Numbered from the stretch's first letter, positions 13,052-50,179 are shown. The stretch: DNA of 64,000 bases from Fidelibacterota bacterium (GCA_045568995.1 JBJKZY010000024.1:26518-90517); one strand, 5' to 3'. The notes: generated from the sequence alone by a model not told the origin. Program-made: numbers and translations.

Positions 13052-14887
13052 TTAATTAGTTAAAACTATTTCAGAATATTGAGCTTTGGTTAATTGTGAG
13101 TCGTCATGAGAGAGAGTAGCTATCCCTACGTAAAATGATTTTCCCCATTTTGCAATATTTAATTCTCCGAGTTTTTCCCAATCATTACTATCCAAAACAA
13201 AAAATTCAATAATTTTACCCGATTTTTTTATTTTTAATCTTGCATTCTTTAAATCAATTTGGGGTCCAGATTTAGCTTTCATGGTCTCACCATTACTTGT
13301 TCTATAGCCAAACTCGGTATTACCGCTAGGGAACATATTAATTAACCCATGAGCAGAATTTGAATTGAGGCTTTTTCGGATCATGAGTCCTGCTTTAGCA
13401 TATTGATGAACATTATACAGTGAGTCAATTTTTATACTAAAGCTAAAGTCGGTATTTATTTTTTTATATGCATATCGGAACTGATCATTTGTATTCCAAA
13501 TATCATCACCACCTCCATAAAAAGACCAGTTGTTCCCATTTATTTTTTGTCCGCCTTTTAAGGGCCTTCCAATATCTCGGACTTTCCATGAAATTGGTAA
13601 AGGATCTTCATAAGGAGGTTTTATTATGGAAGGTGGTTTTGGAGGTAACTCATCTAAAACAGCTGGTTTATTATTTGTAGTAAGCCAATACTTTAGATCT
13701 TTATCTATAGATATTTCCATTTCTCCAAAAGAAATAAACCAATCACGTATTCCATTGTAAGAAGCGGTTTTTAAATCCACATAACTTATGTCTTTTGCAT
13801 TGGTTACCATGCCCCATGTCCCGTCTCCAACTCCTCCGTTTGCATCAAGAACTTTATAAGACCACATGGTTGCTGGCCAGTGTAGTGATTCATAAAAATC
13901 ATAATATCTCCGCATCATCTCTCCACCACCGGCACCTTTCAGTACAACGTTAAACTCTCCAATTAATAGAGGACTATTGAATTCTTCCATTTTAGCTACC
14001 CAATTTGGCAATCCTTCTAATAAAAATTCTGCGTGAATATATGGGGTTGCTGATCCCCATCCAAAAAAACCTGGATAGAAGTGCATGGTGTATATAACAT
14101 TACTTAGTTCCACAGATTTAATATTTTGATAAAAATCTATTCCACTAGTATGCCCTGGGAAAATCACTAAATGATTGTCATTGTTTTTCCTTATTTCTTT
14201 GTAGCACTTTAAAACAATTTTTTTCAAATTTTTCTCACTACTTCCCCATGGCTCATTTAAAAAGTCATATGCAGCAATCGTGGATTCATTTTTATACCGA
14301 TTGGATATTTGTTTCCATAGCCAGGCAGTTTGATCTTGAAAGCCTTTATTAGACCATAGCTTATTATAACCAACTCTTCCTGAGTGATCCATGCCGCTTT
14401 GCCTGCCTGGAGCTCCATGCATATCAAGTATTACATAGAGTCCCTTTTCTTTTGCAATTTTAATAGCTAGATCTAACCACTCCCAAGCATCGCTTTTTAA
14501 TTTGAATGGTTTTGTATCTGAATCCATTAGAAGTTTATAATCAAATGGTAATCTAATTGTATTCATGCCAAACGATTTGATAATATCAAAGTCACTCTCT
14601 TTCATCCAATGAGATCGATATATATCCATTAGTTCTTCAGCTTTTTCTTTTCCAAATCTATGTTCTAGAGTTTCAATGAATTCATGTTGATCCTCAATAC
14701 CTTTTCCAGCATAGTTCAGCATCCACATTTCTAGCATAAGCCAATTCCCTGTGTTAACGCCTTTCAGGAAAACTGGTTGATTGTTTTCATCAGTAATTTT
14801 TCCATTTTTTAGTTGTAATAAATCACTCCCAAAAAGAGTTGCAAAAGAAACTATTCCACATAAAACAATTTTTTTCATACTGCACAT
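13052..14887 (-). CDS. GH5 glucan beta-1,3-glucosidase-like enzyme with a C-terminal concanavalin/DUF1349-like domain; has a signal peptide and no CTD, so likely periplasmic
   Basis: GVNTGNWLMLEMWM, IRLPFDY, ILDMHGAPGRQSGMDHSG, FLNEPWG (acid/base Glu) and IGEFN (nucleophile Glu) follow the GH5 exo-beta-1,3-glucanase pattern. The start may be the internal MKKIV at 14878. Confidence 0.7.
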   Translation of the reverse strand: MCSMKKIVLCGIVSFATLFGSDLLQLKNGKITDENNQPVFLKGVNTGNWLMLEMWMLNYAGKGIEDQHEFIETLEHRFGKEKAEELMDIYRSHWMKESDFDIIKSFGMNTIRLPFDYKLLMDSDTKPFKLKSDAWEWLDLAIKIAKEKGLYVILDMHGAPGRQSGMDHSGRVGYNKLWSNKGFQDQTAWLWKQISNRYKNESTIAAYDFLNEPWGSSEKNLKKIVLKCYKEIRKNNDNHLVIFPGHTSGIDFYQNIKSVELSNVIYTMHFYPGFFGWGSATPYIHAEFLLEGLPNWVAKMEEFNSPLLIGEFNVVLKGAGGGEMMRRYYDFYESLHWPATMWSYKVLDANGGVGDGTWGMVTNAKDISYVDLKTASYNGIRDWFISFGEMEISIDKDLKYWLTTNNKPAVLDELPPKPPSIIKPPYEDPLPISWKVRDIGRPLKGGQKINGNNWSFYGGGDDIWNTNDQFRYAYKKINTDFSFSIKIDSLYNVHQYAKAGLMIRKSLNSNSAHGLINMFPSGNTEFGYRTSNGETMKAKSGPQIDLKNARLKIKKSGKIIEFFVLDSNDWEKLGELNIAKWGKSFYVGIATLSHDDSQLTKAQYSEIVLTN

Positions 14888-14893
14888 TCCATT

Positions 14894-17800
14894 TTATATA
14901 TTGTTATTAAATAAAAATTTTTCATGAATCTGAAATTCAATTTGGTTTACACTACCATCTCTATCAAAAACGGAAGAACTCCTTTTTTGATCAATAAGAT
15001 TTCCTTCTATTTTTACTTTGGAGTTATCCTTGAAAATTAAATTAATATGAGAATCCGTTTCGGATAGAGTGTATACTATAGGTACTTGGCAAAAAGTATA
15101 TGCTAGTTGCTTTTCAAGAATCTCCAGAGATCTTTTTGTTTTTGAAATATCAAAATAGGTAAATATTTTTTTTTGTGATAGGAATTCTTCTCTTAGTAAT
15201 AGAGATGTGTCAAACATTATGCATCCGTTTTGAACAAAGCATCCAAGTTCTCCAAACCTTGTCAAAATTTCTTCTTTGACTTGCCCCGTCATTCCCGGCT
15301 GTTGCGCTCCTGAATGTGATGGAGTGTGTGAGTACGGATCAAAAGGAAATGCTCCATATTCTTTTGGAGTTTTAGCTGCACTTAAACCATCTCTTATTTT
15401 ATAATAATAGTAACCTAAGCTTTGAATAATATTATTTTCAGAAGATTCGTTGTTTTTTGCTGAAAAGAATTTTTCTTGTGTAGCTAATAGTAATTTTGAG
15501 ATCATATGCCAATAGATTGATCCAATTCCTTCATAAGAAAACATTGTTCCAGATCTTCCTGTGAAATTTCTATGATTAAAAACAAGTTCATAAATTTTTG
15601 ATATGTATTCTAATTCTTCTTCGAATGATATATCTTCAGTCTTTGATTTGGGTAATTGTTTTAGTGCATAAAATAAATCAGATGTGTTTCGAAATTTGGG
15701 GTTAAAACGGAAATTCCCATCAAAGTCCTTTTCCACAATTAATGTATTTTTTTGATCAACCATTTTACTTAACAAAACACTTTTTTTAAGGTGTTCTGGT
15801 TCTATGATGTTTTTCTTTAGGAAAGGAGTAATCTCTTTTTCAGGATATAAAATAAAACTTTTCATATCCGCACGGTAGAGGCTGCTGGAAAAAAGTGATT
15901 TTAGAGTTGAAGCACTATTAAATGAATTTTGTGATTGGCAACTTAGCCCAGCTACTTGACCCTCTAGCATAAGGTCTAGCTTTTGTATATCTATAGATTG
16001 ATTTTTCGAATTAATATTTATTGTGTTATAGGCATCAAATAACCCATTATCTTTACGGTTATCAAGTATAGTTTCATTAAGATGATTACAGATTTTTGAG
16101 AGGAAATTTTCTATTTTATTTAAAGATAATTTTTCAAAAGTGCTAAACCCTGAAGAGTATATTTTTTCCCTGTAATTTTCAAATATTTTTCCTAATCCAG
16201 ATACATAATTCATTCTTTCTTTGTCAGAGCATGTAGTATGATTTATGTTTTTGTTTTCGGTTACTTCTGCATCTACTTCATTGAACCACAATAATACTTC
16301 ATAAGAAACATTAATATTTTTAGCTTTGATTTGATGGATAAGCTCTTTGAAAAAGTCAAGAAATCTTTTTAGATAATACACAGTTACCATCGAGCATCCA
16401 TTCCCAACTAATGCATTGTTTGCATCATTCCACTCAGGTCGTTGAGTATTGAGCCATATTCCTGCTCCTGGAACATAATTGCAAATTTTTGCTAGAGATA
16501 ACACGAGAATTTTTTCACATAAGTTTACGTGATAAATCTCTTTGTCTTTAGTAAGTAATAGTCTACCATCAGATCCTAGTTCATCAACTAAATCCATAAT
16601 TTTATCATGACATTCAAAATCAAAGTCAATCGTTTCTTTAGGGTTTTTCGCCATCTCTTTAAAACTTTTTATTTTGTAAGGAATATTTGCGTAGCTGAAA
16701 ATTGCATCGCCAAATAATTGTTCTAATCTTTTTGGATTAGTGTCATTTAAATGTTCTAGTAATTTTAAAAGATAAATAATCTGATGGTCGTTCCAGTATC
16801 CAATATGACTCCAAGAATCATCAGGCTCTATTACTTCCCAATCAATTCCGTAGCTTGTAATTCTGTAAGGATTATAGCCATCAGCCGATGTTGCATTTAA
16901 AAATATAGATACCATTGACTCCCATGCATTAGGATAACTAAGGCCTAATGCTTCCCAATTTTGGAATATATCTCTCCAGTTTCCTTCAAAATAAAGTACT
17001 GGTTGATCATTTATATCCTTTGTTAGAATATTAAAATGATTCCATGGCCTGCTAGGATCTCCATGTCTTCTTCCTAGAGTAAGTGGAAGGTATTCTCTGC
17101 AAAGTCTCCTTATAGATGGTTTATTTAACTTGTCACCAAATTCTATAAGATCTTTAATGTTAAAAGAATTGGGGAGTTGGCTAATATTGGCTTGATAAGC
17201 TTTAAATGTCTTTTTACTTCTTTTTTGTAAGAATAGTTCAAAGCTATTTTTTTGTATGGTGTAGTTATCAAAAAATATTCCGCCCCTTAAAACATTGTAT
17301 GTAACATTCGCCGTATGGTGTAAATCATTTGTATTAATATTTGTACATTGAAATCCATCAGCCATTCCAATATTTTTTTCAAATGCATTATAATTATCTG
17401 CTAAACTTTTTTCTAGCTCTTCTTCAATACGATCATTGCCTTTTAAATTTAAAATAATTGCACTGATGTCAGATTGGGATTTTTGCACATCGGCAATGAT
17501 ATACCAGATTATTTCGTGATCAGGGAGCAAGGGTTTATGAATATAATTTAAGAAGCTACCCTCTTTGCCTTTTAGCAAATGATCTTTCTCAAAGTAATTG
17601 TTTGATAGAAATGTGCTAACAGATTTTTCATTAACTGAGAGTTCAATATTTTCATTAGAGGATGACCAAACAATATTTGAAAACAGTGACTCGCCAGGGT
17701 CCGGCTTATCCATTAGCAATGCGTTCATGTAATATAGTGCATAATTATAATCTGAATTACCTTCGGATACTTTATATGCATTTGCAAGGTTACTCATTTC

Positions 17801-18301
17801 CTGTTGTGTTCTAAGGCCTACTCCAGCAGGAAGAATATTTCTTAAACCGTCAATTAGCTTAATATATAATTCTTTACCACTATGGTTTAACAACTTCGTC
17901 TTTTTAACAAAACCGTATTTTGTGGATGCTTGCCAGCTATAAAGAAATGTGAGTCCTAGAGTATGGTTGATTTCTTCAAAGACTATTTTATTACCTAAGC
18001 TATTTTTATAAAGGTTCTGATTTTTTTTATAATTATCAATTTGATCTGAGAAAGGCTGCCAAGAGTAATTTTTATTATCTACATCAATGGAAATGCATGT
18101 TATTGGACCAGTGAAATGTGCATTCTTATGTAATAAATCATCTGTCACATAAGGAAATAAAGCATGCTCAGCTTTTTGTCTTCCCGCACTTAAACATCCC
18201 GAACTACTAAGGTACATCCAGTGGTTGTCAGCACTTGTGATCGACATGAGGAAAGGATCAATATCTTTAAAATTTGATATTTTATACAGCTTATCTTTCA
18301 T
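14894..18301 (-). CDS. Large cytoplasmic GH94-clan-like protein; candidate beta-1,3-glucan (laminari-oligosaccharide) phosphorylase, GH149/GH161-like
   Basis: 1135 aa with no signal peptide, encoded in one operon with GH1 and GH30. The segment GIWLNTQRPEWNDANNAL resembles the (D/E)WND catalytic-Asp motif of GH94-type phosphorylases. RRHGDPSRPWNHF looks like a phosphate/sugar-binding segment. Size fits bacterial GH149/GH161 members. Family assignment is from memory and has not been searched. Confidence 0.45.
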   Translation of the reverse strand: MKDKLYKISNFKDIDPFLMSITSADNHWMYLSSSGCLSAGRQKAEHALFPYVTDDLLHKNAHFTGPITCISIDVDNKNYSWQPFSDQIDNYKKNQNLYKNSLGNKIVFEEINHTLGLTFLYSWQASTKYGFVKKTKLLNHSGKELYIKLIDGLRNILPAGVGLRTQQEMSNLANAYKVSEGNSDYNYALYYMNALLMDKPDPGESLFSNIVWSSSNENIELSVNEKSVSTFLSNNYFEKDHLLKGKEGSFLNYIHKPLLPDHEIIWYIIADVQKSQSDISAIILNLKGNDRIEEELEKSLADNYNAFEKNIGMADGFQCTNINTNDLHHTANVTYNVLRGGIFFDNYTIQKNSFELFLQKRSKKTFKAYQANISQLPNSFNIKDLIEFGDKLNKPSIRRLCREYLPLTLGRRHGDPSRPWNHFNILTKDINDQPVLYFEGNWRDIFQNWEALGLSYPNAWESMVSIFLNATSADGYNPYRITSYGIDWEVIEPDDSWSHIGYWNDHQIIYLLKLLEHLNDTNPKRLEQLFGDAIFSYANIPYKIKSFKEMAKNPKETIDFDFECHDKIMDLVDELGSDGRLLLTKDKEIYHVNLCEKILVLSLAKICNYVPGAGIWLNTQRPEWNDANNALVGNGCSMVTVYYLKRFLDFFKELIHQIKAKNINVSYEVLLWFNEVDAEVTENKNINHTTCSDKERMNYVSGLGKIFENYREKIYSSGFSTFEKLSLNKIENFLSKICNHLNETILDNRKDNGLFDAYNTININSKNQSIDIQKLDLMLEGQVAGLSCQSQNSFNSASTLKSLFSSSLYRADMKSFILYPEKEITPFLKKNIIEPEHLKKSVLLSKMVDQKNTLIVEKDFDGNFRFNPKFRNTSDLFYALKQLPKSKTEDISFEEELEYISKIYELVFNHRNFTGRSGTMFSYEGIGSIYWHMISKLLLATQEKFFSAKNNESSENNIIQSLGYYYYKIRDGLSAAKTPKEYGAFPFDPYSHTPSHSGAQQPGMTGQVKEEILTRFGELGCFVQNGCIMFDTSLLLREEFLSQKKIFTYFDISKTKRSLEILEKQLAYTFCQVPIVYTLSETDSHINLIFKDNSKVKIEGNLIDQKRSSSVFDRDGSVNQIEFQIHEKFLFNNNI

Positions 18302-18321: not shown

Positions 18322-19665
18322 CTAGTTGCTAATTATGGTGAGAATAGATCTGGGGGGTATTGAAAAAGATTTAGATTTGATATTATTTTCATATGAAAAT
18401 GGTACGCTCTTCTCCTCTTTATTCATAATTGTTGTAGTTATTTTTTGATTTTTATCGATAGCGGAAAGGGCAAGAAGTGTATCGGTTGTATTCTCAATCT
18501 CAACAATCCTATCTCCTCTACTAAAAAATCTAGAAAAATGACCTAAGTAATAATAAGAGCTTTGAAAAAGTAATTCCTGTGTTTTGGTATTTACTATTAT
18601 AGGTGCACTGCAATAATTACCAACATGATTTGGTCCACCTCTTTCATCTAGTAACAGGTTCCAATCAATCCAAGCCACTGTCCATCTATTGAGATCGTTT
18701 ATAATAGAAGTTGCATATCGTTCTCCCAAATCCCAAGAACCAAGATGTGGTCCTTCCTCTTGACATCCTTCTGTAAATATTAATTCTTTGTCTGGGAATT
18801 CATCATGCACCTTTTGAACCTCGTCAAAATGATCACCATTGTACCAGTGAAATCCAGTACCCCATACGTATTTTGCAGCATCAGGATCTGATAAAACTGC
18901 TCTGGATCGTTTGACCATTACGTCTCGGTTGTGATCCCATATAATAAGTTTTTTATCAAGATATTTATTTTTTTCTAGAGCAGGGCCTAAAAACTTCTTT
19001 ATAAAATCTCGCTCTTCTTCACCTGAATATATACATGAGTCCCATGTCTGAACTGCCTCGGGTTCATTTTGTACAGAAATACCCCATATAGGAACACCAT
19101 CTTTCTCGTAAAACTCTATGTATTTACAATAATACTCAGCCCAGGTATCTTGGTATTTTTCTTTGAGTTTGCCACCATGATTCATTTGATTGTTTGTTTT
19201 CATCCAGGGAGGTGGGCTCCAAGGAGAAGCCATGATATGAATAGGTGCAGAGGCTTTTTCCAGAGCTGCCTTGATAAATGGGATAAGCATCTTTTTATCT
19301 CTTTGAATAGAAAAGTCAGCTAATCTTCGATCTTTAGTTTCGCAAAGGGCATAGTTCCCTAATGAGAAATCACAACTGTTTATATGAGTTCTACCCATAT
19401 TGTATTGATTTCCATCCTTACCAAAGTATGCTTCAATAATTTCATTTTTTTTATTTTTATCAAGTTGATCATAAATACTTGCAGATGCTTCAGTAAAAGC
19501 ACCACCAAATCCTAATATTTTTTGCCGACGTAAATTTGTGTGTAAGCGAATAGACTTCAATTCTGCTTTTGAGTCTGTTAGTATTTCACTTTCTGAAATT
19601 TTTTCAAGTCTACTATTTGAATCTTTGGAGGTTAAATAGAGGGAGATGTCTTTAGATAAATTCAT
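18322..19665 (-). CDS. GH30 glycoside hydrolase (glucosylceramidase/beta-1,6-glucanase-like), cytoplasmic
   Basis: GFGGAFTEA, SPWSPPPWMK, GISVQNEPE (acid/base Glu) and IFTEGC (nucleophile Glu region) are GH30 hallmarks. No signal peptide. Confidence 0.8.
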   Translation of the reverse strand: MNLSKDISLYLTSKDSNSRLEKISESEILTDSKAELKSIRLHTNLRRQKILGFGGAFTEASASIYDQLDKNKKNEIIEAYFGKDGNQYNMGRTHINSCDFSLGNYALCETKDRRLADFSIQRDKKMLIPFIKAALEKASAPIHIMASPWSPPPWMKTNNQMNHGGKLKEKYQDTWAEYYCKYIEFYEKDGVPIWGISVQNEPEAVQTWDSCIYSGEEERDFIKKFLGPALEKNKYLDKKLIIWDHNRDVMVKRSRAVLSDPDAAKYVWGTGFHWYNGDHFDEVQKVHDEFPDKELIFTEGCQEEGPHLGSWDLGERYATSIINDLNRWTVAWIDWNLLLDERGGPNHVGNYCSAPIIVNTKTQELLFQSSYYYLGHFSRFFSRGDRIVEIENTTDTLLALSAIDKNQKITTTIMNKEEKSVPFSYENNIKSKSFSIPPRSILTIISN

Positions 19666-39771: not shown

Positions 39772-39780
39772 CAATGAATA

Positions 39781-43041: not shown

Positions 43042-44095
43042 CATTATTTGCTCTATCTCTCTTATCTCTATTTTATTTTCAAAGCCTTACAAAGGTGGAG
43101 AGTTACGAACAGAAGACACATTTAGGTACGGGCGATTTGAAGTAAGAATGAAGTCTGCTTTTGGAAATGGAGTGGTAAGTTCATTTTTCACTTACAAAGA
43201 TTTTTGGCAAGAAGGGCTAACAAATAGTTATTGGAATGAGATTGACTTTGAGTGGCTTGGTAATTATGAAGATAAAGTTCAAACAAATCTCATAATTCAA
43301 AACGAATGGGATCTACCAGAGCTTACTGCTTTAAATGTAAATCCTCATGAAGATTTTCATACCTATGCTATCGAATGGACTCCCTTAAATATCAATTTTT
43401 TTATTGACGATCAATTGATTCGATCGGTAACCAATTTTTACACAGATTCGTTGTATCATTATCAAAAGCTTATGATGAATATCTGGCAGCCGACATACGA
43501 AGATTGGGTCGGCGAGTTTGATTCGAGTATTTTACCCGTCTACGCATTCTATGATTGGGTAAAATACTACGCTTATGTTCCGAACTCAGGGAATGCGGGT
43601 ACAGATAATGATTTTATTTTAATGTGGACAGATGATTTTGATTATTACAATGCTTCTCGTTGGGACAAAGCAAATCATACTTGGGATGGGAATAATTGTG
43701 ATCTTATTTATTCTAATGTTGTTTTTGAGTATGGCTATTTAATCTTATGTTTGACTAATTCGACCAATACAGGATACAATGGAGATCCTCTTGCAGTTCA
43801 ATTAGACCCGCTACCAAAAACTATTTCGATTGGACCACCATTCCCAAATCCTTTTAATAACAATGTAGTATTTCCTGTTACCACCATGGAATCGGGCTTT
43901 GCAGAATATTCTATTTTCGATGTAAAAGGAGAAAAAATAAAGTATGAAAAAAATTTGGTTATTGATAGTGAAACCAAGATCATTTTTTGGGATGGAAAAG
44001 GAACGAATGGAGAAGAAATTTCTTCAGGAACCTATTTTTTCCAGATAAAAAATAAAAATCATTCTGAGGTTAGAAAGGTATCTTTTTTAAAGTAA
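43016..44095 (+). CDS. GH16 licheninase-type beta-glucanase + T9SS CTD
   Basis: 359 aa. YKGGELRTEDTFRYGRFEVRMK...NEIDFEWLG (ExDxE)...YAIEWTP. CTD FPNPFNNNVVFPV...GTYFFQI...VSFLK. Overlaps the upstream gene by 26 nt. Confidence 0.8.
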   Translation: MKKQFYLNSIICSISLISILFSKPYKGGELRTEDTFRYGRFEVRMKSAFGNGVVSSFFTYKDFWQEGLTNSYWNEIDFEWLGNYEDKVQTNLIIQNEWDLPELTALNVNPHEDFHTYAIEWTPLNINFFIDDQLIRSVTNFYTDSLYHYQKLMMNIWQPTYEDWVGEFDSSILPVYAFYDWVKYYAYVPNSGNAGTDNDFILMWTDDFDYYNASRWDKANHTWDGNNCDLIYSNVVFEYGYLILCLTNSTNTGYNGDPLAVQLDPLPKTISIGPPFPNPFNNNVVFPVTTMESGFAEYSIFDVKGEKIKYEKNLVIDSETKIIFWDGKGTNGEEISSGTYFFQIKNKNHSEVRKVSFLK

Positions 44096-44133: not shown

Positions 44134-47007
44134 ATGAAATATTTTTTTGGTACTGTCGTACTTCTTTTTAGTTTTTTATTTTCTAACAATTTGCAAGTTG
44201 AGCAATATCAATTAGAAAATGGTATGACTGTAATGTTAAACGAAGATAAAGAAGCCTCCGGGGTGTATGGTGTGGTAATTGTAAAAGGAGGTGGGAAGCA
44301 GGATCCATCAGATGCTACTGGGATTGCTCATTATCTAGAGCATATGCTTTTCAAAGGTACCACAGAATTGGGTACTGTAAACTATAAAAAAGAAAAGGTA
44401 TATCTAGACAGCATTGCTTTATTATATGATAATCTTAGTTTAACAAAATCAGATGATAAAAGATTAGAGATCCAGAAAAAAATTAATGATCTCAACCTTA
44501 AAGCTTCAGAGTACGCTATTCCTAATGAATTTGATAGAATATTAGAAGGAATGGGTGGAACAGGTATCAATGCATTTACAAGCAACGATGTAATAGCTTA
44601 TTTTAATCAGTTTCCTCCTCATCAGATAAACAAGTGGCTTGAGGTCAATAGCCACAGGTTTATAAATCCTGTTTTTAGATTATTCCAATCTGAATTAGAG
44701 GTTGTCTATGAGGAGAAAAACAGAGCAATGGACAATCCTTTTAGAAAACTAATTGAAGAATATTTTGAACATTTTTGGAAAAAGCATCCCTATGGGCAGC
44801 AAACAGTTCTTGGTACTGTAGATCACCTTAAAAATCCATCTCTAACCAAAATGAGAGAATATTATGATAAATATTATATAGCCAATAACATGTATCTCTT
44901 GCTAGCAGGTAATTTTCAATCAATAAACATAAAACCTCAGATCGAAAATACTTTTGGAAGGTTACAGTCAGGACCCGCTCCAAAATTTGTAGATGTAGAT
45001 GAAGTGTCTTTTAACGGAAGGGAAGTAGTAAAGAACAGGCTCACTCCAGTACGTTTTGGTATCCTCGGATACAGAGTGCCACCGAATAGTCATGAGGATT
45101 CAGAAAAAATTCAGGTAATTAAAAATTTATTAAACAATCGATCTTCTACAGGATTATTAGATAGGTTAAGTATAGAAAATAAGTTGACCTCTTGTTCTGC
45201 GGTAGATGGTTTCGGAGGATCTGATCATGGATCTATGGCATTTATTTTTATACCCAAGCTAGTATTTCAAACTTTTCGCGGAGCAGAGAACCAGGTTTTA
45301 AAACAAATTGAAAAAATTAAGAATGGTGAGTTTAGTGAGGAGTTTTTGGAGTCTGTTAAGCTTTCTATGATTCAAGATCATGAGACAGGGCTTGAGAATG
45401 TAAGCAATCGTCTTTCGTATGCTCTAGAGGTAGTGAATTACAATAAGACTTGGGAAGGTATTTTTAATTATCCTGAGGTTATTGAATCAGTAACAAAAAA
45501 GGACGTTATCCAGATCGCAAATAAATATTTTAATGACGACTATCTAGTATATCAGTCCAGAATGGGGTTCCCTAAAAAGGCTAAATTAGATAAACCTCCA
45601 TTTAAAGCAATTAAGGCGAAAAATTCGGAAAAAGTATCTGAATATCGAAGTAAACTAGAAAACCTATCAGAAGACCCCATTAAATTTGATTTTATAAATC
45701 TTGAAAGAGATATGCAGTATGGGGAGATAAAGAATAATTATCATTTATATCATAACATGAATCCAAAGAATTCAATTTTCACTATGAAAGTTGAATACGG
45801 TATAGGCACTAAGGAAGATCCAACATTACAATATGCGGCTGAATTGGGTAATATGATAGGTAATGAAAAGTATTCGTTTAATGTTCTCAAAGAAGAGCTT
45901 CAAAAAATTGGAGCTACAATTAATTTTTATAGTTCTGGAGATTATTTTGGATTAGACATTAAAGGATTTGATAAAAACTTTGACAAAACGATGAATATGG
46001 CTAGCGAGTTTTTACAAACAATGAAAGTTAGAAAAGAGGATAAAAAGAAATTAAAAAAACTGATTCAGGGCAGTACAATTGAAAGGATGATCGAAGGAAG
46101 AGATGCATCAACGAAAGGAAATGCTTTAAGGGATTATGCTTTGTGGGGTCAGAATTCTAATTGGTTAAAACGATCGACGATTAAAGAAGTCAAAAAGATG
46201 GATACAGAATTTTTGTTAGATAAAATTTCTACAGCCATGACATATGAGACGACTATATTTTTCACAGGAACATTAGATTTTACGGAAGTAAAAAATTCTG
46301 TAAAGAAGAATTTTATTTTTAATAATCAATTAAAAAAATCGTCTTCTCCCATTGTGTATGAGCAACAATTAAAAGACAAGAATACTATATATTTTTACAA
46401 CGATAAAAAAGCCGTTCAGAGTCAGATTCATGTTCTTATACCAGGTTCTAAAATGGAATTGGATGAAAGACTTACTTCCAGAACTTTTAACAAATATTTT
46501 GGAAGTGGGATGAGCGCGCTAGTTTTTCAAGAGATAAGGGAATTTAGATCCCTTGCATATTCCGCATACGGTGTGTATCAGGTTCCGTGGTATTTAGATG
46601 GTCAAGGATACTTTAGAGGTTACATGGGTACTCAGGCAGATAAAACCGTTAATGCTATAAAAGCTTATCTTGACCTTTTGAAAAAAATGCCCGAGAAACC
46701 GTTAAGGATGGAAGGAATTAAATCTGGATTGCTACAATCACTTGTTACCTCAAAGCCTAATTTCAGATCTTTAGCTCGTACTGGAAGAAATTGGAAATTG
46801 CAGGGGTATGATGAGAATCCTAATGTTTTATATAAAGACAACTATGAATCTGTTGATTTTAAAACTGTTGTTAACTTTTATGAGGAAAACCTAAAAGAGA
46901 AGCCGTATACTATCGCTATTGTAGGCAATCGAGAAAAAATAGATATGCAAAAGCTTGCTGATTTCGGGGAATTAATTGAAGTAGATAAAAAAGATATTTT
47001 TAATTAA
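44134..47007 (+). CDS. M16 (pitrilysin/insulinase) family zinc peptidase, two-unit type
   Basis: 957 aa with a signal peptide. Inverted zinc motif HYLEHMLFKGT (HxxEH) with a downstream Glu region (ELEVVYEEKNR). The second half is an M16-like inactive unit. Confidence 0.85.
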   Translation: MKYFFGTVVLLFSFLFSNNLQVEQYQLENGMTVMLNEDKEASGVYGVVIVKGGGKQDPSDATGIAHYLEHMLFKGTTELGTVNYKKEKVYLDSIALLYDNLSLTKSDDKRLEIQKKINDLNLKASEYAIPNEFDRILEGMGGTGINAFTSNDVIAYFNQFPPHQINKWLEVNSHRFINPVFRLFQSELEVVYEEKNRAMDNPFRKLIEEYFEHFWKKHPYGQQTVLGTVDHLKNPSLTKMREYYDKYYIANNMYLLLAGNFQSINIKPQIENTFGRLQSGPAPKFVDVDEVSFNGREVVKNRLTPVRFGILGYRVPPNSHEDSEKIQVIKNLLNNRSSTGLLDRLSIENKLTSCSAVDGFGGSDHGSMAFIFIPKLVFQTFRGAENQVLKQIEKIKNGEFSEEFLESVKLSMIQDHETGLENVSNRLSYALEVVNYNKTWEGIFNYPEVIESVTKKDVIQIANKYFNDDYLVYQSRMGFPKKAKLDKPPFKAIKAKNSEKVSEYRSKLENLSEDPIKFDFINLERDMQYGEIKNNYHLYHNMNPKNSIFTMKVEYGIGTKEDPTLQYAAELGNMIGNEKYSFNVLKEELQKIGATINFYSSGDYFGLDIKGFDKNFDKTMNMASEFLQTMKVRKEDKKKLKKLIQGSTIERMIEGRDASTKGNALRDYALWGQNSNWLKRSTIKEVKKMDTEFLLDKISTAMTYETTIFFTGTLDFTEVKNSVKKNFIFNNQLKKSSSPIVYEQQLKDKNTIYFYNDKKAVQSQIHVLIPGSKMELDERLTSRTFNKYFGSGMSALVFQEIREFRSLAYSAYGVYQVPWYLDGQGYFRGYMGTQADKTVNAIKAYLDLLKKMPEKPLRMEGIKSGLLQSLVTSKPNFRSLARTGRNWKLQGYDENPNVLYKDNYESVDFKTVVNFYEENLKEKPYTIAIVGNREKIDMQKLADFGELIEVDKKDIFN

Positions 47008-48215
47008 TGAAATTCTATTTTTTAGTTTTCACATTCTTTAGTTTCATTTTATGCTCTTGTAGTGAGGAAGGGGATAAAGTGCCATCCGGTGATCAAATTT
47101 CTACTTTTTCTTCAAATTGGGAATTGTTGTGGTCAGATGAATTTGATGGAGCAGATCTTGATATCTCTAAGTGGAATAAACTGAGTTGGAGACCTGGGTG
47201 GGTCAATAATGAGCTCCAGGCATACACTGAAAGGGACACTAACATATTTTTGGAGAATGGCTATTTAGTTTTGCAAGGCTTGATAGATCCAGGTTTTTCT
47301 GGAACTGATTATAATGGGAATAATTATAATGCGGATTACACTTCTGGGAGAGTAAATACGGATGGTAAATTTTCAACAACGCACGGGAGATTTGATATAC
47401 GAGCTAAACTTCCGAAAGGTAAGGGGTCATGGCCAGCGATCTGGATGCTGGGAGAAAGTATAAGCTCAATTGGATGGCCTGATTGTGGTGAAATAGATAT
47501 TATGGAGCATGTTGGATACGATGAGGGTATGATTCATGGTTCTATACATACAGAAGAATATAATCATATGTATAATACTCAAAGGTCAGGCTCAAAGTAT
47601 ATTGAAGATGTCACCAATACATTTCATGTGTATTCTTTAGAGTGGAGTCCATTTTATCTACGTTATTTAATCGATGATGAGCCTTTTTTCTTCGTGTACA
47701 ACGACAGTAAGGGAGATAATAGCAAGTGGCCATTTGATGATCCACATTATATTATTTTAAACCTCGCTATTGGAGGCGATTGGGGAGGCGTACAAGGTAT
47801 TTCTACGAGTGACTTCCCCATGCGGATGATGGTTGATTATGTTAGAGTATTTAAACAATCAAATTCTTATAATAATATTGACGTAACATTTAGGGTGAAT
47901 ATGAAAAATGAAAACGTGAACAGTACTGGAGTCTGGCTTTCCGGAGGGAATTTAGGCTCTGGGCAACCCGGTGGAATTCAAATGGAACAATCATCGGATC
48001 AAAATATTTGGCAAATTACTTTGACACTCCCTCCTAATTCTAATTATACTTACAAATATAGGAACGGTTATTTCCCTAATTCTTGGCAAGGTGGTTGGGA
48101 AGTTCTAGATAATAGCTGTGGTGTAGGAGATCATAATGATAGATCACTTTCGATAAGTGATACTGACACTTTGCTTGCACCCATTTGTTTTGGAGATTGT
48201 GTAACATGCGAATAA
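47007..48215 (+). CDS. GH16 laminarinase-type endo-beta-1,3-glucanase lipoprotein with a C-terminal CBM20/48-like beta-sandwich
   Basis: Lipobox ILCSCS. WELLWSDEFDG...GWVNNELQAYT...GEIDIMEHVG (beta-bulge motif)...DYVRVF. C-terminal IDVTFRVNM...WQITLTLPPNSNYTYKYRNG. Confidence 0.85.
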   Translation: MKFYFLVFTFFSFILCSCSEEGDKVPSGDQISTFSSNWELLWSDEFDGADLDISKWNKLSWRPGWVNNELQAYTERDTNIFLENGYLVLQGLIDPGFSGTDYNGNNYNADYTSGRVNTDGKFSTTHGRFDIRAKLPKGKGSWPAIWMLGESISSIGWPDCGEIDIMEHVGYDEGMIHGSIHTEEYNHMYNTQRSGSKYIEDVTNTFHVYSLEWSPFYLRYLIDDEPFFFVYNDSKGDNSKWPFDDPHYIILNLAIGGDWGGVQGISTSDFPMRMMVDYVRVFKQSNSYNNIDVTFRVNMKNENVNSTGVWLSGGNLGSGQPGGIQMEQSSDQNIWQITLTLPPNSNYTYKYRNGYFPNSWQGGWEVLDNSCGVGDHNDRSLSISDTDTLLAPICFGDCVTCE

Positions 48216-50179
48216 TAATTATTTCAATATTAGTTTCTGGTCTTACTTTTGCTCAGGGGTTCCTGCATAATATGAATGGGGAAGTTGTTGATGGAAACGG
48301 AGAACCCATTTTACTACGAGGATTTGGGCTTGGTGGTTGGCTTGTTCCAGAGGGGTACATGTTGCATAATCAAGCTTGGATTGAGGGGTTTGAATCTCCA
48401 ACAGATATAGAAAATCACGTAATGGATTTGATTGGACAAGATGCTGCTACAGATTTTTGGAATTTATACAGAGCAAATTATGTTGCTCAAGCAGATATAG
48501 ATAAAATTGCAGAATGGGGTTTTAATCATATTAGAGTTCCATTCCATTACAAACAATTTTATGATTCTACTGGAACAGAGACACCGATTGGATATGGTAT
48601 TGTTGATGAACTTATTTCCTGGTGTGAGCCACATAACATATATATTATATTGGACATGCACTGTGCGCCTGGAGCTCAGAATGGAGGTCCAATTAGTGAT
48701 AGTGACGGAATCGCTCGTTTATGGTTAGAAGACAGCTATAAAGAACTTACTATTCAAATTTGGAAAGAAATTGCTACTTATTATTCAGATCATACTCTCA
48801 TTGCAGGATATGATTTGATTAATGAGCCCGTTTTGCCAGGTGGAGTTACTCTTCAGGAATTCAAACAATTATATGTAGACATAACTGAGGCAATAAGAGA
48901 AGTGGATAACAATCATCTCATTTGGATAGAAGGAAATTGGTACGGAACGGATTTTTCTGGTCTTACCCCTCCATGGGATGATAATATGGGCTATTCATTC
49001 CATAAATATTGGGGGCAGACTGATATTTCAACCATCCAATCCTATATAAGTATGCGTAATACATATGGAGTCCCTTTATGGATGGGAGAATCAGGAGAGA
49101 ACTCTAATCATTGGTACTATGAAGTGTTTAAGTTGCTTGAAGAAAATAATATTGGATGGAATTTTTGGACGCATAAAAAAGTAGATAAGATAACAAGTCC
49201 ATATTCTGCTTTAGTAACCCCTCAATATCAAACGATAATTAATTATTTAACAGGTTCGATTAGTCAGCCAGATCCTAATATTGCAGGGATGGGTCTTACA
49301 AGTTTTGCAAATAGTTTAAAAATAGAAAATTGTATTACACGACCAGGAGTGATTGCTTCCCTAACTGACCCAGAATACGGTGAAATTTCAAAACCTTTTA
49401 AAAGCCATTCTATTCCTGGAACTATTGCAGCTGCATATTATGACATAGGCGCGAGAGGTCTTTCATACACGGATAGTGATTATTGGAATGATGGTGATGG
49501 TGGTTACAATGATGGGTGGGTTGGAAGAAATGATGGAGTCGACTTAGAAGGTAGCGATGATGATCCAGATATTCCTTTTACGGTTGGCTATACTGAAGCG
49601 GGTGAATGGTTAGGTTATACCATTCAAGAGGTAACTACGGGAACATATGATGTGAGTTTTCGTATATCTGCACCAGGTTCAGATGGACTATTCTACGCTC
49701 AATTAAGCGGCCAAAATTTAGGAGTGGTTGAAGTACCATCCACTGGAGGTTGGTATAATTGGGAAGATACCCCTGCTCAAACTATTGCGATCGAGGAAGG
49801 TGAAAAATTTTTAAAAATTCAGATTGTTCAATCTGGCTTCAATATTCAAAGCATTACTTTTAGTCCTGTGTTGAGTAATGAGGATGAAAAAATAAACCCA
49901 AATAGTTTTACACTTGGGACGCCATACCCAAATCCATTTAATCCATTTGTGAAAATGGAGCTTTCATTAGAAAATAGTGGTAAATACCAGATTAATATTC
50001 ACAACATTAAAGGTGAGTTAATTGATAACTGGGATGTGAACTTTACGCGTAAAGGGAGTCACATTATACAATGGGACGCAACGAACCATGATGGGAAAGT
50101 AGTGCCGAGCGGATTATTTTTTATAAGCGTTAGAAATCAGAATGAAAGTAAACAGAAAAAAGTAATACTCCTTAGGTAA
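48206..50179 (+). CDS. GH5 beta-glucanase/glucosidase + CBM6-like domain + T9SS CTD
   Basis: I prefer the start MRIIIISILV (ATG at 48206) to the track start at 48185. FGLGGWLVPEGYML, IRVPFHY, ILDMHCAPGAQNGG, LINEPV and MGESGEN. CBM6-like IPGTIAAAYYD...GEWLGYTIQ...YDVSFRISAP. CTD YPNPFNPFVKMELSL...GLFFISV...VILLR. Confidence 0.75.
   Translation: MRIIIISILVSGLTFAQGFLHNMNGEVVDGNGEPILLRGFGLGGWLVPEGYMLHNQAWIEGFESPTDIENHVMDLIGQDAATDFWNLYRANYVAQADIDKIAEWGFNHIRVPFHYKQFYDSTGTETPIGYGIVDELISWCEPHNIYIILDMHCAPGAQNGGPISDSDGIARLWLEDSYKELTIQIWKEIATYYSDHTLIAGYDLINEPVLPGGVTLQEFKQLYVDITEAIREVDNNHLIWIEGNWYGTDFSGLTPPWDDNMGYSFHKYWGQTDISTIQSYISMRNTYGVPLWMGESGENSNHWYYEVFKLLEENNIGWNFWTHKKVDKITSPYSALVTPQYQTIINYLTGSISQPDPNIAGMGLTSFANSLKIENCITRPGVIASLTDPEYGEISKPFKSHSIPGTIAAAYYDIGARGLSYTDSDYWNDGDGGYNDGWVGRNDGVDLEGSDDDPDIPFTVGYTEAGEWLGYTIQEVTTGTYDVSFRISAPGSDGLFYAQLSGQNLGVVEVPSTGGWYNWEDTPAQTIAIEEGEKFLKIQIVQSGFNIQSITFSPVLSNEDEKINPNSFTLGTPYPNPFNPFVKMELSLENSGKYQINIHNIKGELIDNWDVNFTRKGSHIIQWDATNHDGKVVPSGLFFISVRNQNESKQKKVILLR

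What the first reader, a model, noticed from the sequence alone, without database searches (positions are those of the whole stretch)
13052..50179. A ~37 kb laminarin/beta-glucan island with compartment-sorted enzymes and a hybrid TonB + ABC + phosphorylase import route
Seen: two divergent operons flank a LacI regulator, and the sorting signals partition the proteins cleanly.
- T9SS-CTD cargo (cell surface): the 1180-aa binder, two ExDxE-type GH16s and GH5-CBM6.
- Lipoproteins: two ExDxxE-type GH16s and the family-5 SBP.
- Signal peptide only: the GH5 at 13052.
- No signal peptide (cytoplasm): GH1, GH30 and the 1135-aa phosphorylase candidate.

I recognised no SusD, MFS transporter, GH3 or GH17, which are the usual parts of flavobacterial laminarin PULs.

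Inference: a 'selfish' uptake pathway assembled from different parts, in the order T9SS-displayed endoglucanases, TBDT, periplasmic trimming, Opp-type ABC import, then cytoplasmic debranching (GH30) with hydrolysis or phosphorolysis.
Basis: partly seen in the sequence, partly recalled or inferred. Interest (0 to 1): 0.6.

Follow-up and report, generated by a model that had tools for sequence, protein, structure and literature searches.

The report
SAR406 beta-glucan uptake gene island
This is a conserved gene island that an uncultured marine SAR406 (Marinimicrobia) bacterium most likely uses to capture, import and digest algal beta-glucans, and its outer-membrane core is a widespread cassette, for which my capped literature searches found no description, that stands where Bacteroidetes have the SusC/SusD pair.

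Summary
HMM and PDB searches confirm two GH5, four GH16, GH1, GH30, a true GH149 beta-1,3-glucan phosphorylase, an Opp-type ABC importer, LacI, a TonB-dependent transporter (TBDT) and four T9SS C-terminal domains (CTDs).

The frame changes in five ways:
- **Host.** It is Candidatus Neomarinimicrobiota (SAR406), not a flavobacterium.
- **Conservation.** The whole divergent two-operon layout recurs in other Marinimicrobia lineages, so it is inherited rather than an ad hoc hybrid.
- **Precedent.** GH149 + Opp-type ABC + LacI is already published as the "type I" GH149 cluster.
- **Substrate.** The two T9SS-displayed GH16s are lichenase-type, so mixed-linkage glucan is probably a target as well as laminarin.
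- **Missed genes.** These are a 1156-aa CTD protein, a PorV/PorQ-family barrel, a SurA/PrsA-like lipoprotein and an M16 peptidase.

The ABC ATPase and the PorV-family gene each carry a one-base homopolymer frameshift here. Both genes are intact in independent 99–99.9 % identical assemblies.

The main new result concerns the triad TBDT → 1156-aa protein → PorV-like barrel. It recurs in 63/66 and 67/70 assessable metagenomic loci (GC 33–63 %), flanked by CBM/CTD proteins, LacI, sugar transporters and varied glycoside hydrolases.

Verdict: a new variant of a known kind.

The parts
11413..13044 (+). Na+/solute symporter (SSF, YidK-like). It is adjacent to and convergent with the island and may be an accessory monosaccharide importer.
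   Evidence: PF00474. NCBIfam NF007790 scores 600 bits against a cut-off of 401. It is absent from relative L001, but SSF genes recur upstream of the cassette in 5 metagenomic loci.
13052..14887 (-). GH5 enzyme with a signal peptide and no CTD; candidate periplasmic beta-glucanase.
   Evidence: PF00150. Best PDB relatives are 9KU5, glucan 1,3-beta-glucosidase 8Z2W, CelC and Candida exo-1,3-beta-glucanase. N-terminus MKKIVLCGIVSFATLFG.
14894..18301 (-). GH149 beta-1,3-(oligo)glucan phosphorylase, cytoplasmic.
   Evidence: NF058639 scores 1441 bits against a cut-off of 1150. PDB 6HQ6 scores 1015 bits over the full length. No signal peptide.
18322..19665 (-). GH30 (my reading: GH30_1-like, from its best PDB relatives), cytoplasmic; candidate beta-1,6 debranching glucosidase.
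   Evidence: PF02055 at 1e-81. Best PDB hits are SrfJ 2WNW and glucosylceramidases. Best NCBIfam hit is the BT3312 endo-1,6-beta-glucanase, but below cut-off.
19678..21036 (-). GH1 beta-glucosidase, cytoplasmic. The true start is the ATG at 21036.
   Evidence: TIGR03356 scores 570 bits against a cut-off of 478.5. PF00232 at 5e-164.
21026..22700 (-). Fused OppD-OppF (YejF/GsiA-type) double ABC ATPase. In this assembly it is split by a +1 frameshift in a C4 run at about 22375-22378.
   Evidence: It is an intact 545-557 aa protein in L005, L008 and L094-L096. The 99 % identical assemblies differ by exactly one gap.
22693..24614 (-). Two Opp/Dpp-type ABC permeases: OppC-like 22693-23631 and OppB-like 23628-24614.
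   Evidence: PF00528, OppC_N and BPD_transp_1_N.
24611..26254 (-). Family-5 solute-binding lipoprotein; candidate beta-gluco-oligosaccharide binder.
   Evidence: PF00496. Lipobox LSSC. Closest PDB relatives are the Vibrio chitooligosaccharide-binding proteins 6LZW/1ZTY (240 bits), then Thermotoga family-5 binding proteins 2O7I, 4JSD and 4PFT, which I recall as sugar binders; only 4PFU carries a mannoside label.
26258..27553 (-). PA14 + laminarinase-type GH16 (GEIDIMEH) lipoprotein.
   Evidence: PF07691 and PF00722. Motif and N-terminal Cys.
27573..28562 (-). LacI-family regulator, first gene of the leftward operon.
   Evidence: Peripla_BP_3/1/4 and LacI HTH. Conserved at this position in L001, L005, L006, L008 and L085.
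28617..28682 (.). Conserved core of the divergent intergenic region (ATTATTGCAAATTTTTTTCATT … TGAAAAAAGATTGCAT, including the palindrome ATTGCATTTTTTTGCAAT); candidate operator/promoter.
   Evidence: It is almost fully conserved (a few mismatches and one 1-nt gap in the spacer) with L085/L087, where LacI is only 59 % identical. The palindrome was found once, but about 0.36 are expected by chance, so conservation is the evidence, not the palindrome.
28800..32342 (+). 1180-aa surface protein with CBM4_9 (weak), CBM9 and a T9SS type A CTD; candidate surface glycan binder.
   Evidence: A CTD protein (often with CBM9 or CBM4_9) precedes the TBDT in most related loci.
32357..32392 (+). 16-bp-stem hairpin followed by a T-rich tail, after the 1180-aa gene; possible attenuator or terminator.
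32455..35235 (+). TonB-dependent transporter (CarboxypepD_reg + Plug + barrel); not SusC-family.
   Evidence: TIGR04056 scores only 61.5 bits against a cut-off of 368, and only over the N-terminal region.
35235..38705 (+). 1156-aa secreted protein of an unannotated family. It is beta-rich with Ca-loop, FN3 and beta-sandwich regions and a PorZ/PorU-like CTD. It overlaps the TBDT stop by 1 nt.
   Evidence: No Pfam hit. Weak CTD hits. AF2 pLDDT 81. Foldseek top hit is PorZ 5M11. In a profile search only the CTD matches PorZ/PorU. The family has 3553 representative clusters.
38702..39771 (+). PorV/PorQ-family outer-membrane barrel. It is split here by a 1-nt deletion (TTT→TT) at about 39340.
   Evidence: The intact 356-aa version in L088-L091 scores 200 bits on NF033709 (cut-off 90) but falls below the PorV and PorQ equivalog cut-offs.
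39781..41250 (+). 489-aa lipoprotein with a SurA/PrsA-like (parvulin-type chaperone) fold.
   Evidence: No sequence-family hit. AF2 pLDDT 79, pTM 0.76. All top Foldseek hits are SurA, PrsA or PEB4. Rotamase_2 genes occur among the two ORFs sampled downstream of the PorV-like gene in 7 paralogous loci.
41251..43041 (+). Lichenase-type GH16 (NEIDIELLG) + malectin + T9SS CTD.
43016..44095 (+). Lichenase-type GH16 (NEIDFEWLG) + T9SS CTD.
44134..47007 (+). 957-aa M16 (pitrilysin-type, HYLEH) peptidase with a signal peptide; a lineage-specific insertion in the operon.
   Evidence: It is absent from the orthologous positions in L085-L087 and L006 and present in the same population (L088).
47007..48215 (+). 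Laminarinase-type GH16 (GEIDIMEH) lipoprotein with an acidic stretch after the Cys.
   Evidence: PDB 3ILN laminarinase scores 224 bits..
48185..50179 (+). GH5 + CBM6/35 + T9SS CTD. The likely start is the ATG at 48206.
50288..52024 (+). 578-aa lipoprotein made of five ~85-aa acidic, Cys-containing repeats. It may be the last gene of the rightward operon and is not conserved in relatives.
   Evidence: It is absent in L085.

Best explanation
The island is a beta-glucan utilisation locus of an uncultured SAR406/Marinimicrobia bacterium. Its layout is conserved in that lineage.

**Shown here:** the family assignments, the sorting domains, the synteny and the taxon.

**Inferred:** the following sequence of steps.
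1. T9SS exports a CBM9 binder, two lichenase-type GH16s and a GH5-CBM6 to the cell surface. A laminarinase-type GH16 lipoprotein may join them there. Together they cut laminarin and mixed-linkage beta-1,3/1,4-glucan into oligosaccharides.
2. A non-SusC TBDT takes up the oligosaccharides. It works with the translationally coupled 1156-aa protein, which I propose is held on the surface through its PorZ/PorU-like CTD by the dedicated PorV/PorQ-like barrel encoded next to it. The SurA/PrsA-like lipoprotein is proposed to assist assembly of these components.
3. In the periplasm, the PA14-GH16 lipoprotein and the signal-peptide GH5 trim the oligosaccharides.
4. The family-5 SBP lipoprotein, two permeases and a fused double ATPase import them.
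5. In the cytoplasm, GH30 removes beta-1,6 branches, GH149 phosphorolyses beta-1,3 chains to glucose-1-phosphate, and GH1 hydrolyses the rest.

LacI, acting at the conserved divergent intergenic element, is proposed to control both operons.
For: - **Family assignments:**. GH149 and GH1 score above equivalog cut-offs.
- **Sorting signals:**
- **SBP:** its nearest solved relatives bind oligosaccharides.
- **Leftward operon:** conserved in L001, L005, L006 and L008. Vibrionaceae carry homologous ABC+LacI+GH149 clusters (PMC5827456).
- **Whole layout:** the divergent two-operon arrangement is conserved in L085-L087.
- **Outer-membrane genes:** they are better conserved than the enzymes in L002 (TBDT 84 %, PorV-like 79 %, 1156-aa protein 76 %, against GH149 57 %). 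Start/stop codons overlap at 35235 and at 38702-38705.
- **Triad:** conserved in 63/66 and 67/70 assessable distant loci, whose neighbours are glycan-related.
- **Frameshifted genes:** both are intact in independent assemblies.
- **Taxon:**
Against: - There are no expression or biochemical data.
- Substrate calls rest on family-level similarity. GH5 specificity is ambiguous. The lichenase-type GH16s score below the NCBIfam equivalog cut-offs.
- Signal peptides and lipoprotein sorting were judged by eye. Surface versus periplasmic placement of the lipoproteins is unknown for this phylum.
- The role of the 1156-aa protein is inferred only from synteny and CTD resemblance. The fold search gave low TM-scores.
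- In this particular assembly the ATPase and the PorV-like gene are frameshifted.
- The M16 peptidase inside the operon is not explained by the model.
Confidence: 0.72

Rival explanations
1. It is a variant flavobacterial (Bacteroidota) laminarin PUL that has lost SusD and gained an ABC transporter.
For: Low GC, T9SS CTDs and a GH16/GH30/GH149 content like the Formosa and Polaribacter laminarin PULs (PMC6246565; PMC10108472).
Against: - Flavobacterial GH149s are only about 45 % identical, against 57-88 % for Marinimicrobia-type contigs.
- One island protein is 100 % identical to a Candidatus Neomarinimicrobiota MAG protein.
- None of about 60 Bacteroidota GH149 loci has the ABC cassette, the 1156-aa protein or the PorV-like gene.
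- The TBDT fails the SusC model.
Confidence: 0.03
2. The ABC system is a genuine oligopeptide importer that works with the M16 peptidase, so the island couples peptide uptake to glucan use rather than importing oligosaccharides.
For: - Best NCBIfam hits of the SBP, permeases and ATPase are Nik/Opp/Dpp/YejF/GsiA, all below cut-off.
- An M16 peptidase sits in the rightward operon.
- Formosa induces peptidases and 'peptide' ABC components on laminarin (PMC6246565).
Against: - The SBP's best solved relatives, by a wide margin, are family-5 proteins that I recall as sugar binders (240 and 186 bits, against 85 or fewer for Ni or peptide binders).
- The cassette is embedded between GH16 and GH1/GH30/GH149 in five lineages.
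- The M16 gene is absent from orthologous loci that keep the ABC cassette.
- The same cassette type accompanies GH149 in Vibrionaceae and was linked to Thermotoga laminarin uptake (PMC5827456).
Confidence: 0.1
3. The locus is decaying. The transporter ATPase and the PorV-like gene are pseudogenes, so the import route is non-functional.
For: There are two 1-nt frameshifts in the window.
Against: - Both are homopolymer-length changes (CCC→CCCC, TTT→TT), and the downstream reading frames remain fully open.
- Three assemblies (99.0 % nt identity) and four assemblies (99.8-99.9 %) of the same population have the intact genes and differ by exactly one gap each.
- The closest long contig, L001, is a pilon-polished assembly riddled with similar breaks.
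Confidence: 0.07
4. The 1156-aa protein and the PorV-like barrel are housekeeping T9SS attachment-complex paralogs (PorZ/PorQ-like) that merely lie next to a TBDT. They are not partners of the transporter.
For: - CTD similarity to PorZ and PorU.
- Foldseek top hit is PorZ.
- The barrel is a PorV/PorQ family member.
Against: - The order TBDT → 1156-aa protein → PorV-like barrel is kept in 63/66 and 67/70 loci spanning 33-63 % GC.
- Several contigs carry two or more cassettes (L171 in tandem; L136 and L160 on one contig; L124). Marinimicrobia have paralogs (P0387, P0394, P0438). Both facts fit substrate-specific modules.
- Overlapping stop/start codons link it to the TBDT.
- Neighbours are CBM proteins, LacI, sugar transporters and GHs.
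Confidence: 0.15

Closest known systems
Type I GH149 gene clusters of Proteobacteria (Kuhaudomlarp et al. 2018, PMC5827456)
   Same: Opp-type ABC cassette (family-5 SBP, two permeases, ATPases) + LacI + GH149 phosphorylase. Homologous cassettes were found here in Grimontia, Photobacterium and Vibrio loci at 31-47 % identity.
   Different: Type I clusters were described as lacking an extracellular laminarinase and an outer-membrane transporter. Here the operon also encodes GH16, GH1, GH30 and GH5, the ATPases are fused, and a divergent operon supplies a TBDT and T9SS-displayed glucanases. The host is SAR406.
Bacteroidota laminarin PULs (Formosa, Polaribacter, Aurantivirga; PMC6246565, PMC10108472)
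   Same: GH16_3-type laminarinases, GH30_1 and GH149 clustered with a TonB-dependent transporter. Surface capture followed by periplasmic processing.
   Different: There is no SusD, and the TBDT is not SusC-family. GH3 and GH17 are absent. The inner-membrane step is an ABC importer rather than an MFS. GH30 and GH149 are cytoplasmic partners of GH1. Surface enzymes are anchored by T9SS CTDs and are of lichenase type.
Thermotoga maritima Opp-family oligosaccharide ABC transporters (cited in PMC5827456; PDB 2O7I, 4JSD, 4PFT)
   Same: Family-5 'oligopeptide' binding proteins recruited for import of beta-linked oligosaccharides produced by an extracellular glucanase.
   Different: The Thermotoga system has no TBDT or T9SS layer and is phylogenetically distant. 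Those proteins score 186 bits with the SBP here, against 240 for the Vibrio chitooligosaccharide-binding proteins.
PorZ-PorQ and PorU-PorV pairs of the Porphyromonas T9SS attachment complex (PDB 5M11, 6ZA2)
   Same: A large beta-rich surface protein whose CTD resembles those of PorZ and PorU, encoded next to a PorV/PorQ-family barrel.
   Different: - It scores below the PorV, PorQ and PorZ equivalog cut-offs.
- It is encoded in a strict triad with a TBDT inside glycan loci.
- Multiple copies occur per contig or phylum.
- Its N-terminal 1000 residues have no sequence match to PorZ.
SAR406 CAZyme inventory of Thrash et al. 2017 (PMC5596340)
   Same: It reports the same parts in SAR406 bins: GH5/CBM6, GH16, GH30/CBM9, oligopeptide transporters, TonB receptors, and Por CTD proteins near GH16.
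   Different: The parts were read separately as cellulose, agar/sulfated galactan and xylan degradation plus peptide uptake. They were not recognised as one beta-glucan locus, and neither GH149 nor the TBDT-CTD-PorV cassette was noted.

Membership tests
GH149 beta-1,3-glucan phosphorylase | Scores above the curated equivalog HMM cut-off and aligns full-length to a characterised member. | tested here: met
   NF058639 scores 1441 bits against 1150. PDB 6HQ6 (Pro_7066) scores 1015 bits over residues 4-1128.
GH149 beta-1,3-glucan phosphorylase | Phosphorolysis of beta-1,3-gluco-oligosaccharides to glucose-1-phosphate. | not testable with these tools
   Needs an enzyme assay.
Bacteroidota PUL (SusC/SusD type) | A SusD-family lipoprotein gene adjacent to the TBDT. 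| tested here: not met
   No SusD Pfam or NCBIfam hit in any ORF. The only lipoprotein of similar size (489 aa) has a SurA/PrsA-like fold.
Bacteroidota PUL (SusC/SusD type) | TBDT belongs to the SusC/RagA family (TIGR04056). | tested here: not met
   61.5 bits against a cut-off of 368; only the N-terminal 200 residues match.
Type I GH149 cluster | Family-5 SBP + two Opp-type permeases + Opp-type ATPases + LacI/AraC regulator next to GH149. | tested here: met
   The definition comes from PMC5827456.
Type I GH149 cluster | No extracellular laminarinase or outer-membrane transporter in the cluster. | tested here: not met
   Four GH16, two GH5 and a TBDT are present.
GH16 laminarinase type (beta-bulge ExDxxE) | ExDxxE catalytic motif and closest similarity to characterised endo-1,3-beta-glucanases. 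| tested here: met
   GEIDIMEH occurs in both. The 402-aa protein scores 224 bits against Rhodothermus laminarinase 3ILN. For the PA14-GH16, only the motif and Pfam were checked.
GH16 lichenase type (ExDxE) | ExDxE motif and closest similarity to 1,3-1,4-beta-glucanases. | tested here: met
   NEIDIELLG and NEIDFEWLG. The 19 best PDB hits are lichenases, with laminarinases at 34 bits or fewer. Best NCBIfam hits are BglS and ExoK.
GH16 lichenase type (ExDxE) | Equivalog-level match to BglS/ExoK, or a CAZy subfamily assignment. | tested here: inconclusive
   150 and 136 bits against a cut-off of 300. dbCAN subfamily HMMs were not available.
T9SS type A cargo | C-terminal sorting domain scoring above the TIGR04183/PF18962 cut-off. 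| tested here: met
   Met for the 1180-aa protein, both lichenase-type GH16s and GH5-CBM6, and also for both CotH proteins.
T9SS type A cargo | The same test applied to the 1156-aa protein. | tested here: inconclusive
   TIGR04183 scores 17.2 bits against 23. There are weak matches to the PorZ and PorU C-termini. The C-terminal ~100 residues are conserved family-wide, with VVPNPY…GxYxY…GKFxxxK.
PorV/PorQ family outer-membrane protein | Scores above the NF033709 cut-off. | tested here: met
   200 bits against 90 for the intact 356-aa version from the same population.
PorV or PorQ proper | Scores above the equivalog cut-offs NF033710 / NF033711. | tested here: not met
   98 bits against 250, and 100 bits against 220.
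SurA/PrsA-type chaperone (489-aa lipoprotein) | Parvulin or SurA_N domains detectable by sequence. | tested here: not met
   No Pfam, NCBIfam, PHROG or PDB sequence hit.
SurA/PrsA-type chaperone (489-aa lipoprotein) | Fold similarity to SurA or PrsA. | tested here: met
   The model has pLDDT 79. The top 29 Foldseek hits are all SurA/PrsA/PEB4-type, with probability 0.75-1.00 (≥0.95 for 27 of them) and E down to 7e-6, although global TM is low.

The most novel reading that the evidence does not exclude
The triad TBDT → ~1100-1500-aa CTD protein → PorV/PorQ-like barrel would be the outer-membrane core of a distinct class of glycan-utilisation loci for which I found no published description. It is usually preceded by a CBM/CTD protein and a LacI regulator, and often followed by a SurA-like chaperone, sugar ABC or MFS importers and glycoside hydrolases.

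This class occurs in Marinimicrobia, candidate division KSB1 and MAGs that NCBI labels 'Bacteroidetes bacterium'. In it, a T9SS-delivered protein held by its own PorV-like barrel would play the substrate-capture role that the SusD lipoprotein plays for SusC. The island in this window would then be the beta-glucan member of that class.
Probability: 0.4. Interest if true: 0.8.

Novelty: new variant of a known kind. Interest (0 to 1): 0.62.

Why it matters
SAR406/Marinimicrobia is one of the most abundant uncultured bacterial groups in the ocean, and its carbon sources are poorly known. Seven capped full-text searches covered Marinimicrobia, Marinisomatota or SAR406 combined with laminarin, GH16, CAZymes or TonB, and Ignavibacteria with PorV. 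I read targeted passages in four of the returned papers, and none of those passages linked the group to laminarin or GH149.

A conserved, complete beta-glucan uptake and phosphorolysis locus gives a concrete, testable claim: this clade consumes laminarin-type and mixed-linkage glucans, which are among the largest fluxes of marine organic carbon.

The locus also exposes a recurrent TBDT + T9SS-cargo + PorV-like cassette. If this is a functional analogue of SusC/SusD, polysaccharide-utilisation loci in phyla outside the Bacteroidia could be recognised by a new signature. It would also assign a role to a protein family of more than 3500 clusters (at 50 % identity) that today is annotated only as 'hypothetical'.

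Tried and rejected
- **Exact look-up of the GH149 protein:** not on record.
- **Genome-collection scan with a GH149 profile:** The best species representatives were only 44-51 % identical, so the source genome was not recovered that way. The taxon was settled later through the 489-aa protein.
- **No tRNA or phylogenetic marker genes in the window**.
- **The 489-aa lipoprotein as a divergent SusD:** rejected, because the fold is SurA/PrsA-like.
- **PHROGs search for the 489-aa protein:** nothing.
- **The ATTGCA-N6-TGCAAT palindrome as an operator:** one match against 0.36 expected by chance. It is therefore not significant on its own, and only its cross-lineage conservation is retained.
- **Sigma-70 promoter scan:** no more informative than shuffles (25 found against 18 expected).
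- **Pseudogene reading of the two frameshifts:** rejected.
- **Literature searches for a described TBDT-PorV cassette or a SAR406 laminarin locus:** nothing found. The library lacks most subscription journals, so absence is not proof.

Full report
**1. What is in the sequence**

ORF listing and Pfam/NCBIfam scans confirm the inventory.

The leftward operon (minus strand, gaps of 0-20 nt) reads, in order of transcription:
- LacI, 27573-28562
- PA14+GH16, 26258-27553
- family-5 SBP, 24611-26254
- two Opp-type permeases, 22693-24614
- ABC ATPase, 21026-22700
- GH1, 19678-21036 (TIGR03356, 570 bits against a cut-off of 478.5)
- GH30, 18322-19665
- the 1135-aa protein, 14894-18301
- GH5, 13052-14887

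The 1135-aa "phosphorylase candidate" has no Pfam domain. It is nevertheless an unambiguous GH149: NF058639 scores 1441 bits against a cut-off of 1150, and it aligns end to end with the crystallised, biochemically characterised Pro_7066 (6HQ6, 1015 bits).

The rightward operon reads:
- a 1180-aa CBM4_9/CBM9 protein with a T9SS CTD, 28800-32342
- a TBDT, 32455-35235
- a 1156-aa protein, 35235-38705
- a PorV/PorQ-family gene, 38702-39771
- a 489-aa lipoprotein, 39781-41250
- GH16+malectin+CTD, 41251-43041
- GH16+CTD, 43016-44095
- an M16 peptidase, 44134-47007
- a GH16 lipoprotein, 47007-48215
- GH5+CBM6+CTD, 48185-50179
- a 578-aa repeat lipoprotein, 50288-52024

No SusD, MFS, GH3 or GH17 was found. 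The TBDT fails the SusC/RagA model (61.5 bits against 368).

**2. Two frameshifts, and why they do not matter biologically**

The ATPase is a single fused OppD-OppF gene. It is an intact 545-557 aa protein in relatives. In the window it is broken by an extra C in a C-run at about 22375-22378, and removing one C restores …ALNALNPVLSIREQIHDV….

The PorV-family gene is broken by a missing T (TTT→TT) at about 39340.

Independent assemblies of the same population have both genes intact. They are 99.0 % identical over 19692-26631 and 99.8-99.9 % identical over 36782-44250, and each differs from the window by exactly one gap in those intervals. I treat the frameshifts as assembly errors or strain-private indels.

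**3. Who carries it**

- The 489-aa protein is 100 % identical to an NCBI protein of a Candidatus Neomarinimicrobiota MAG.
- The 1156-aa protein has more than 120 clusters at 72-87 % identity. Every named one is Marinimicrobia/Neomarinimicrobiota.
- The closest named GH149 is Marinimicrobia at 57 %, whereas Flavobacteriaceae are about 45 %.

The window therefore comes from SAR406 (Marinisomatota/Fidelibacterota), not from a flavobacterium. That removes the surprise of "no SusD".

**4. Conservation**

A tblastn matrix over 84 GH149 loci gives three patterns:
- The LacI-GH16-SBP-permeases-ATPase-GH1-GH30-GH149-GH5 operon occurs in L001 (86-94 % aa identity), L005, L006 and L008 (the last a Candidatus Neomarinimicrobiota MAG).
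- Four Vibrionaceae loci (L027, L034, L050, L060) have the homologous ABC+LacI+GH149 core. A fifth, Enterovibrio L043, shows only LacI and GH16 hits.
- About 60 Bacteroidota loci have no ABC cassette at all.

L085-L087 show the complete divergent arrangement in a second lineage: …SBP←GH16←LacI | CBM9-CTD→TBDT→1156→PorV(356)→491→GH16-CTD→GH16→GH5-CBM6-CTD.

A more distant Marinimicrobia lineage (L002-L004) fuses the modules differently and has no ABC cassette: TBDT-1168-PorV-497-GH16/malectin-GH30-GH149-GH5-GH5.

The outer-membrane genes are the best conserved parts in L002: TBDT 84 %, PorV-like 79 % and the 1156-aa protein 76 %, against GH149 57 %.

**5. Substrate**

- The lipoprotein GH16s are laminarinase-type (3ILN, 224 bits).
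- The CTD-bearing GH16s are lichenase-type. Their 19 best PDB hits are 1,3-1,4-beta-glucanases, led by the Fibrobacter enzyme at 162 bits, while laminarinases score 34 bits or fewer. Their best NCBIfam hits are BglS and ExoK.
- Both GH5s are nearest to exo-1,3-beta-glucanases and CelC.
- I read GH30 as GH30_1-like, from its best PDB hits SrfJ and the glucosylceramidases; no subfamily HMM was run.
- The SBP groups with binding proteins for chito-oligosaccharides and, from my own knowledge of the Thermotoga entries, for cello-, laminari- and manno-oligosaccharides. Nickel and peptide binders score far lower.

The surface layer, however, points to mixed-linkage glucan in addition to laminarin.

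**6. What is already known**

Kuhaudomlarp et al. (PMC5827456) defined three contexts for GH149:
- type I clusters: Opp-type ABC + LacI/AraC + GH149, in Proteobacteria
- type II clusters: TBDT + GHs + MFS
- Bacteroidetes SusCD PULs

The leftward operon here is an enlarged type I cluster. The "hybrid TonB + ABC + phosphorylase" idea is new only in combining type I with a TBDT/T9SS operon, and in its host.

Thrash et al. (PMC5596340) listed the same parts in SAR406 bins. They read them as cellulose, agar and xylan degradation plus oligopeptide uptake.

The searches I could run found no paper linking SAR406 with laminarin or GH149.

**7.

*The 489-aa lipoprotein.* It has no sequence-family hit. 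Its AF2 model (pLDDT 79, pTM 0.76) matches only SurA/PrsA/PEB4 chaperones.

*The 1156-aa protein.*
- It has no Pfam or PDB sequence hit.
- Its model (pLDDT 81) is beta-rich with FN3-like and beta-sandwich regions.
- Its conserved C-terminal ~100 residues resemble the CTDs of PorZ and PorU.
- The family is large: 3553 clusters at 50 % identity. Named members come from Marinimicrobia, KSB1 and "Bacteroidetes bacterium" MAGs, and all are annotated "hypothetical".

*The conserved triad.* A metagenome scan with distant paralogs (30-36 % identical to the window protein) returned 80 loci of 33-63 % GC.
- A TBDT lies immediately upstream in 63 of 66 assessable loci.
- A PorV-family gene lies immediately downstream in 67 of 70 assessable loci.
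- Some contigs carry two cassettes.

*Neighbour census by Pfam.*
- Upstream: Por_Secre_tail 38/85, FlgD_ig 31, LacI-type 8-10, CBM9 7, SSF 5, CBM4_9 3.
- Downstream: Por_Secre_tail 23/93, SBP_bac_1/8 13, permeases 7, Rotamase_2 7, Laminin_G_3 6, MFS 5, GH16 4, GH3 3, GH94 2, GH9 2.

The window's rightward operon thus instantiates a widespread template: [LacI]-[CBM/CTD protein]-TBDT-[1156-like]-[PorV-like]-[PPIase / sugar importer / GHs].

**8. Mechanism**

*Shown:* families, sorting domains, synteny, taxon, and the intact state of the genes in the population.

*Inferred:*
- the order of steps given under "best explanation"
- tethering of the 1156-aa protein to its PorV-like barrel through an uncleaved PorZ/PorU-like CTD
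- its cooperation with the TBDT, suggested by the overlapping stop/start at 35235 and the strict synteny
- a biogenesis role for the SurA-like lipoprotein
- LacI control through the ~60-nt intergenic core, which is almost fully conserved with L085/L087 although LacI itself is only 59 % identical

*Not explained:* the M16 peptidase, which is a lineage-specific insertion absent from L085 and L006, and the 578-aa acidic repeat lipoprotein.

**9. Verdict**

The island is a new variant of known kinds (GH149 type I cluster; PUL-like locus) in an ecologically important uncultured phylum.

Its function is still an inference.

Noticed in passing
window 22375-22378 and about 39340: There are two single-base homopolymer frameshifts (CCC→CCCC in the fused ABC ATPase; TTT→TT in the PorV-family gene). 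Both genes are intact in 99-99.9 % identical independent assemblies. The closest long contig (L001, a 'pilon' assembly) is full of similar breaks, which suggests a long-read origin for such errors.
   Followed up: yes
window 44134-47007: A 957-aa secreted M16 (HYLEH) peptidase sits in the middle of the glucanase operon. It is present in the same population (L088) but absent from the orthologous loci L085-L087 and L006. This recalls the unexplained co-induction of peptidases with laminarin in Formosa (PMC6246565).
   Followed up: partly
window 50288-52024: This 578-aa lipoprotein is built from five ~85-aa very acidic repeats, each with conserved Cys residues (…RECFxLVYPLSYTMPDGS…WYEEN…EEC). It has no family hit apart from a spurious-looking PB1 match, and it is not conserved in relatives.
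   Followed up: no
window 3062-6631 (-) and 6700-11310 (+): Two giant CotH-kinase + lamin-tail-domain + CHB_HEX_C proteins with T9SS CTDs flank the island. CotH/LTD/CTD proteins also lie next to the GH149 operon in L001, L002-L004 and L008. The association is therefore conserved but unexplained.
   Followed up: partly
window 28617-28682: A ~60-nt core of the divergent LacI|CBM-protein intergenic region is almost fully conserved (a few spacer differences) with a lineage whose LacI is only 59 % identical. It contains inverted TTGCAA/ATTGCA half-sites.
   Followed up: partly
window 32357-32392: A perfect 16-bp-stem hairpin with a T-rich tail lies between the 1180-aa CBM/CTD gene and the TBDT gene. 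It may be an attenuator that sets the ratio of binder to transporter.
   Followed up: no
window 53271-57977: A second, unrelated outer-membrane module: a TBDT (CarboxypepD_reg + Plug) followed by a DUF4249 protein, then a PET-hydrolase-like esterase with a dockerin-like tail.
   Followed up: no
window 11413-13044; loci L111, L146, L153, L156: A Na+/solute symporter (YidK-like, 600 bits) abuts the island. It is missing in L001, yet SSF genes recur upstream of the TBDT cassette in several distant loci.
   Followed up: partly
L171 (two tandem cassettes), L136 + L160 (same contig Ga0209163_1000055), L124, L145: Some genomes carry several copies of the TBDT/1156-like/PorV-like cassette close together, much as Bacteroidetes carry many SusC/SusD pairs.
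   Followed up: partly
window 2-3034 (-): A protein of more than 1011 aa with a signal peptide, a PKD domain and a PGA_cap (capsule-synthesis/metallophosphatase-like) domain runs off the left end of the window.
   Followed up: no
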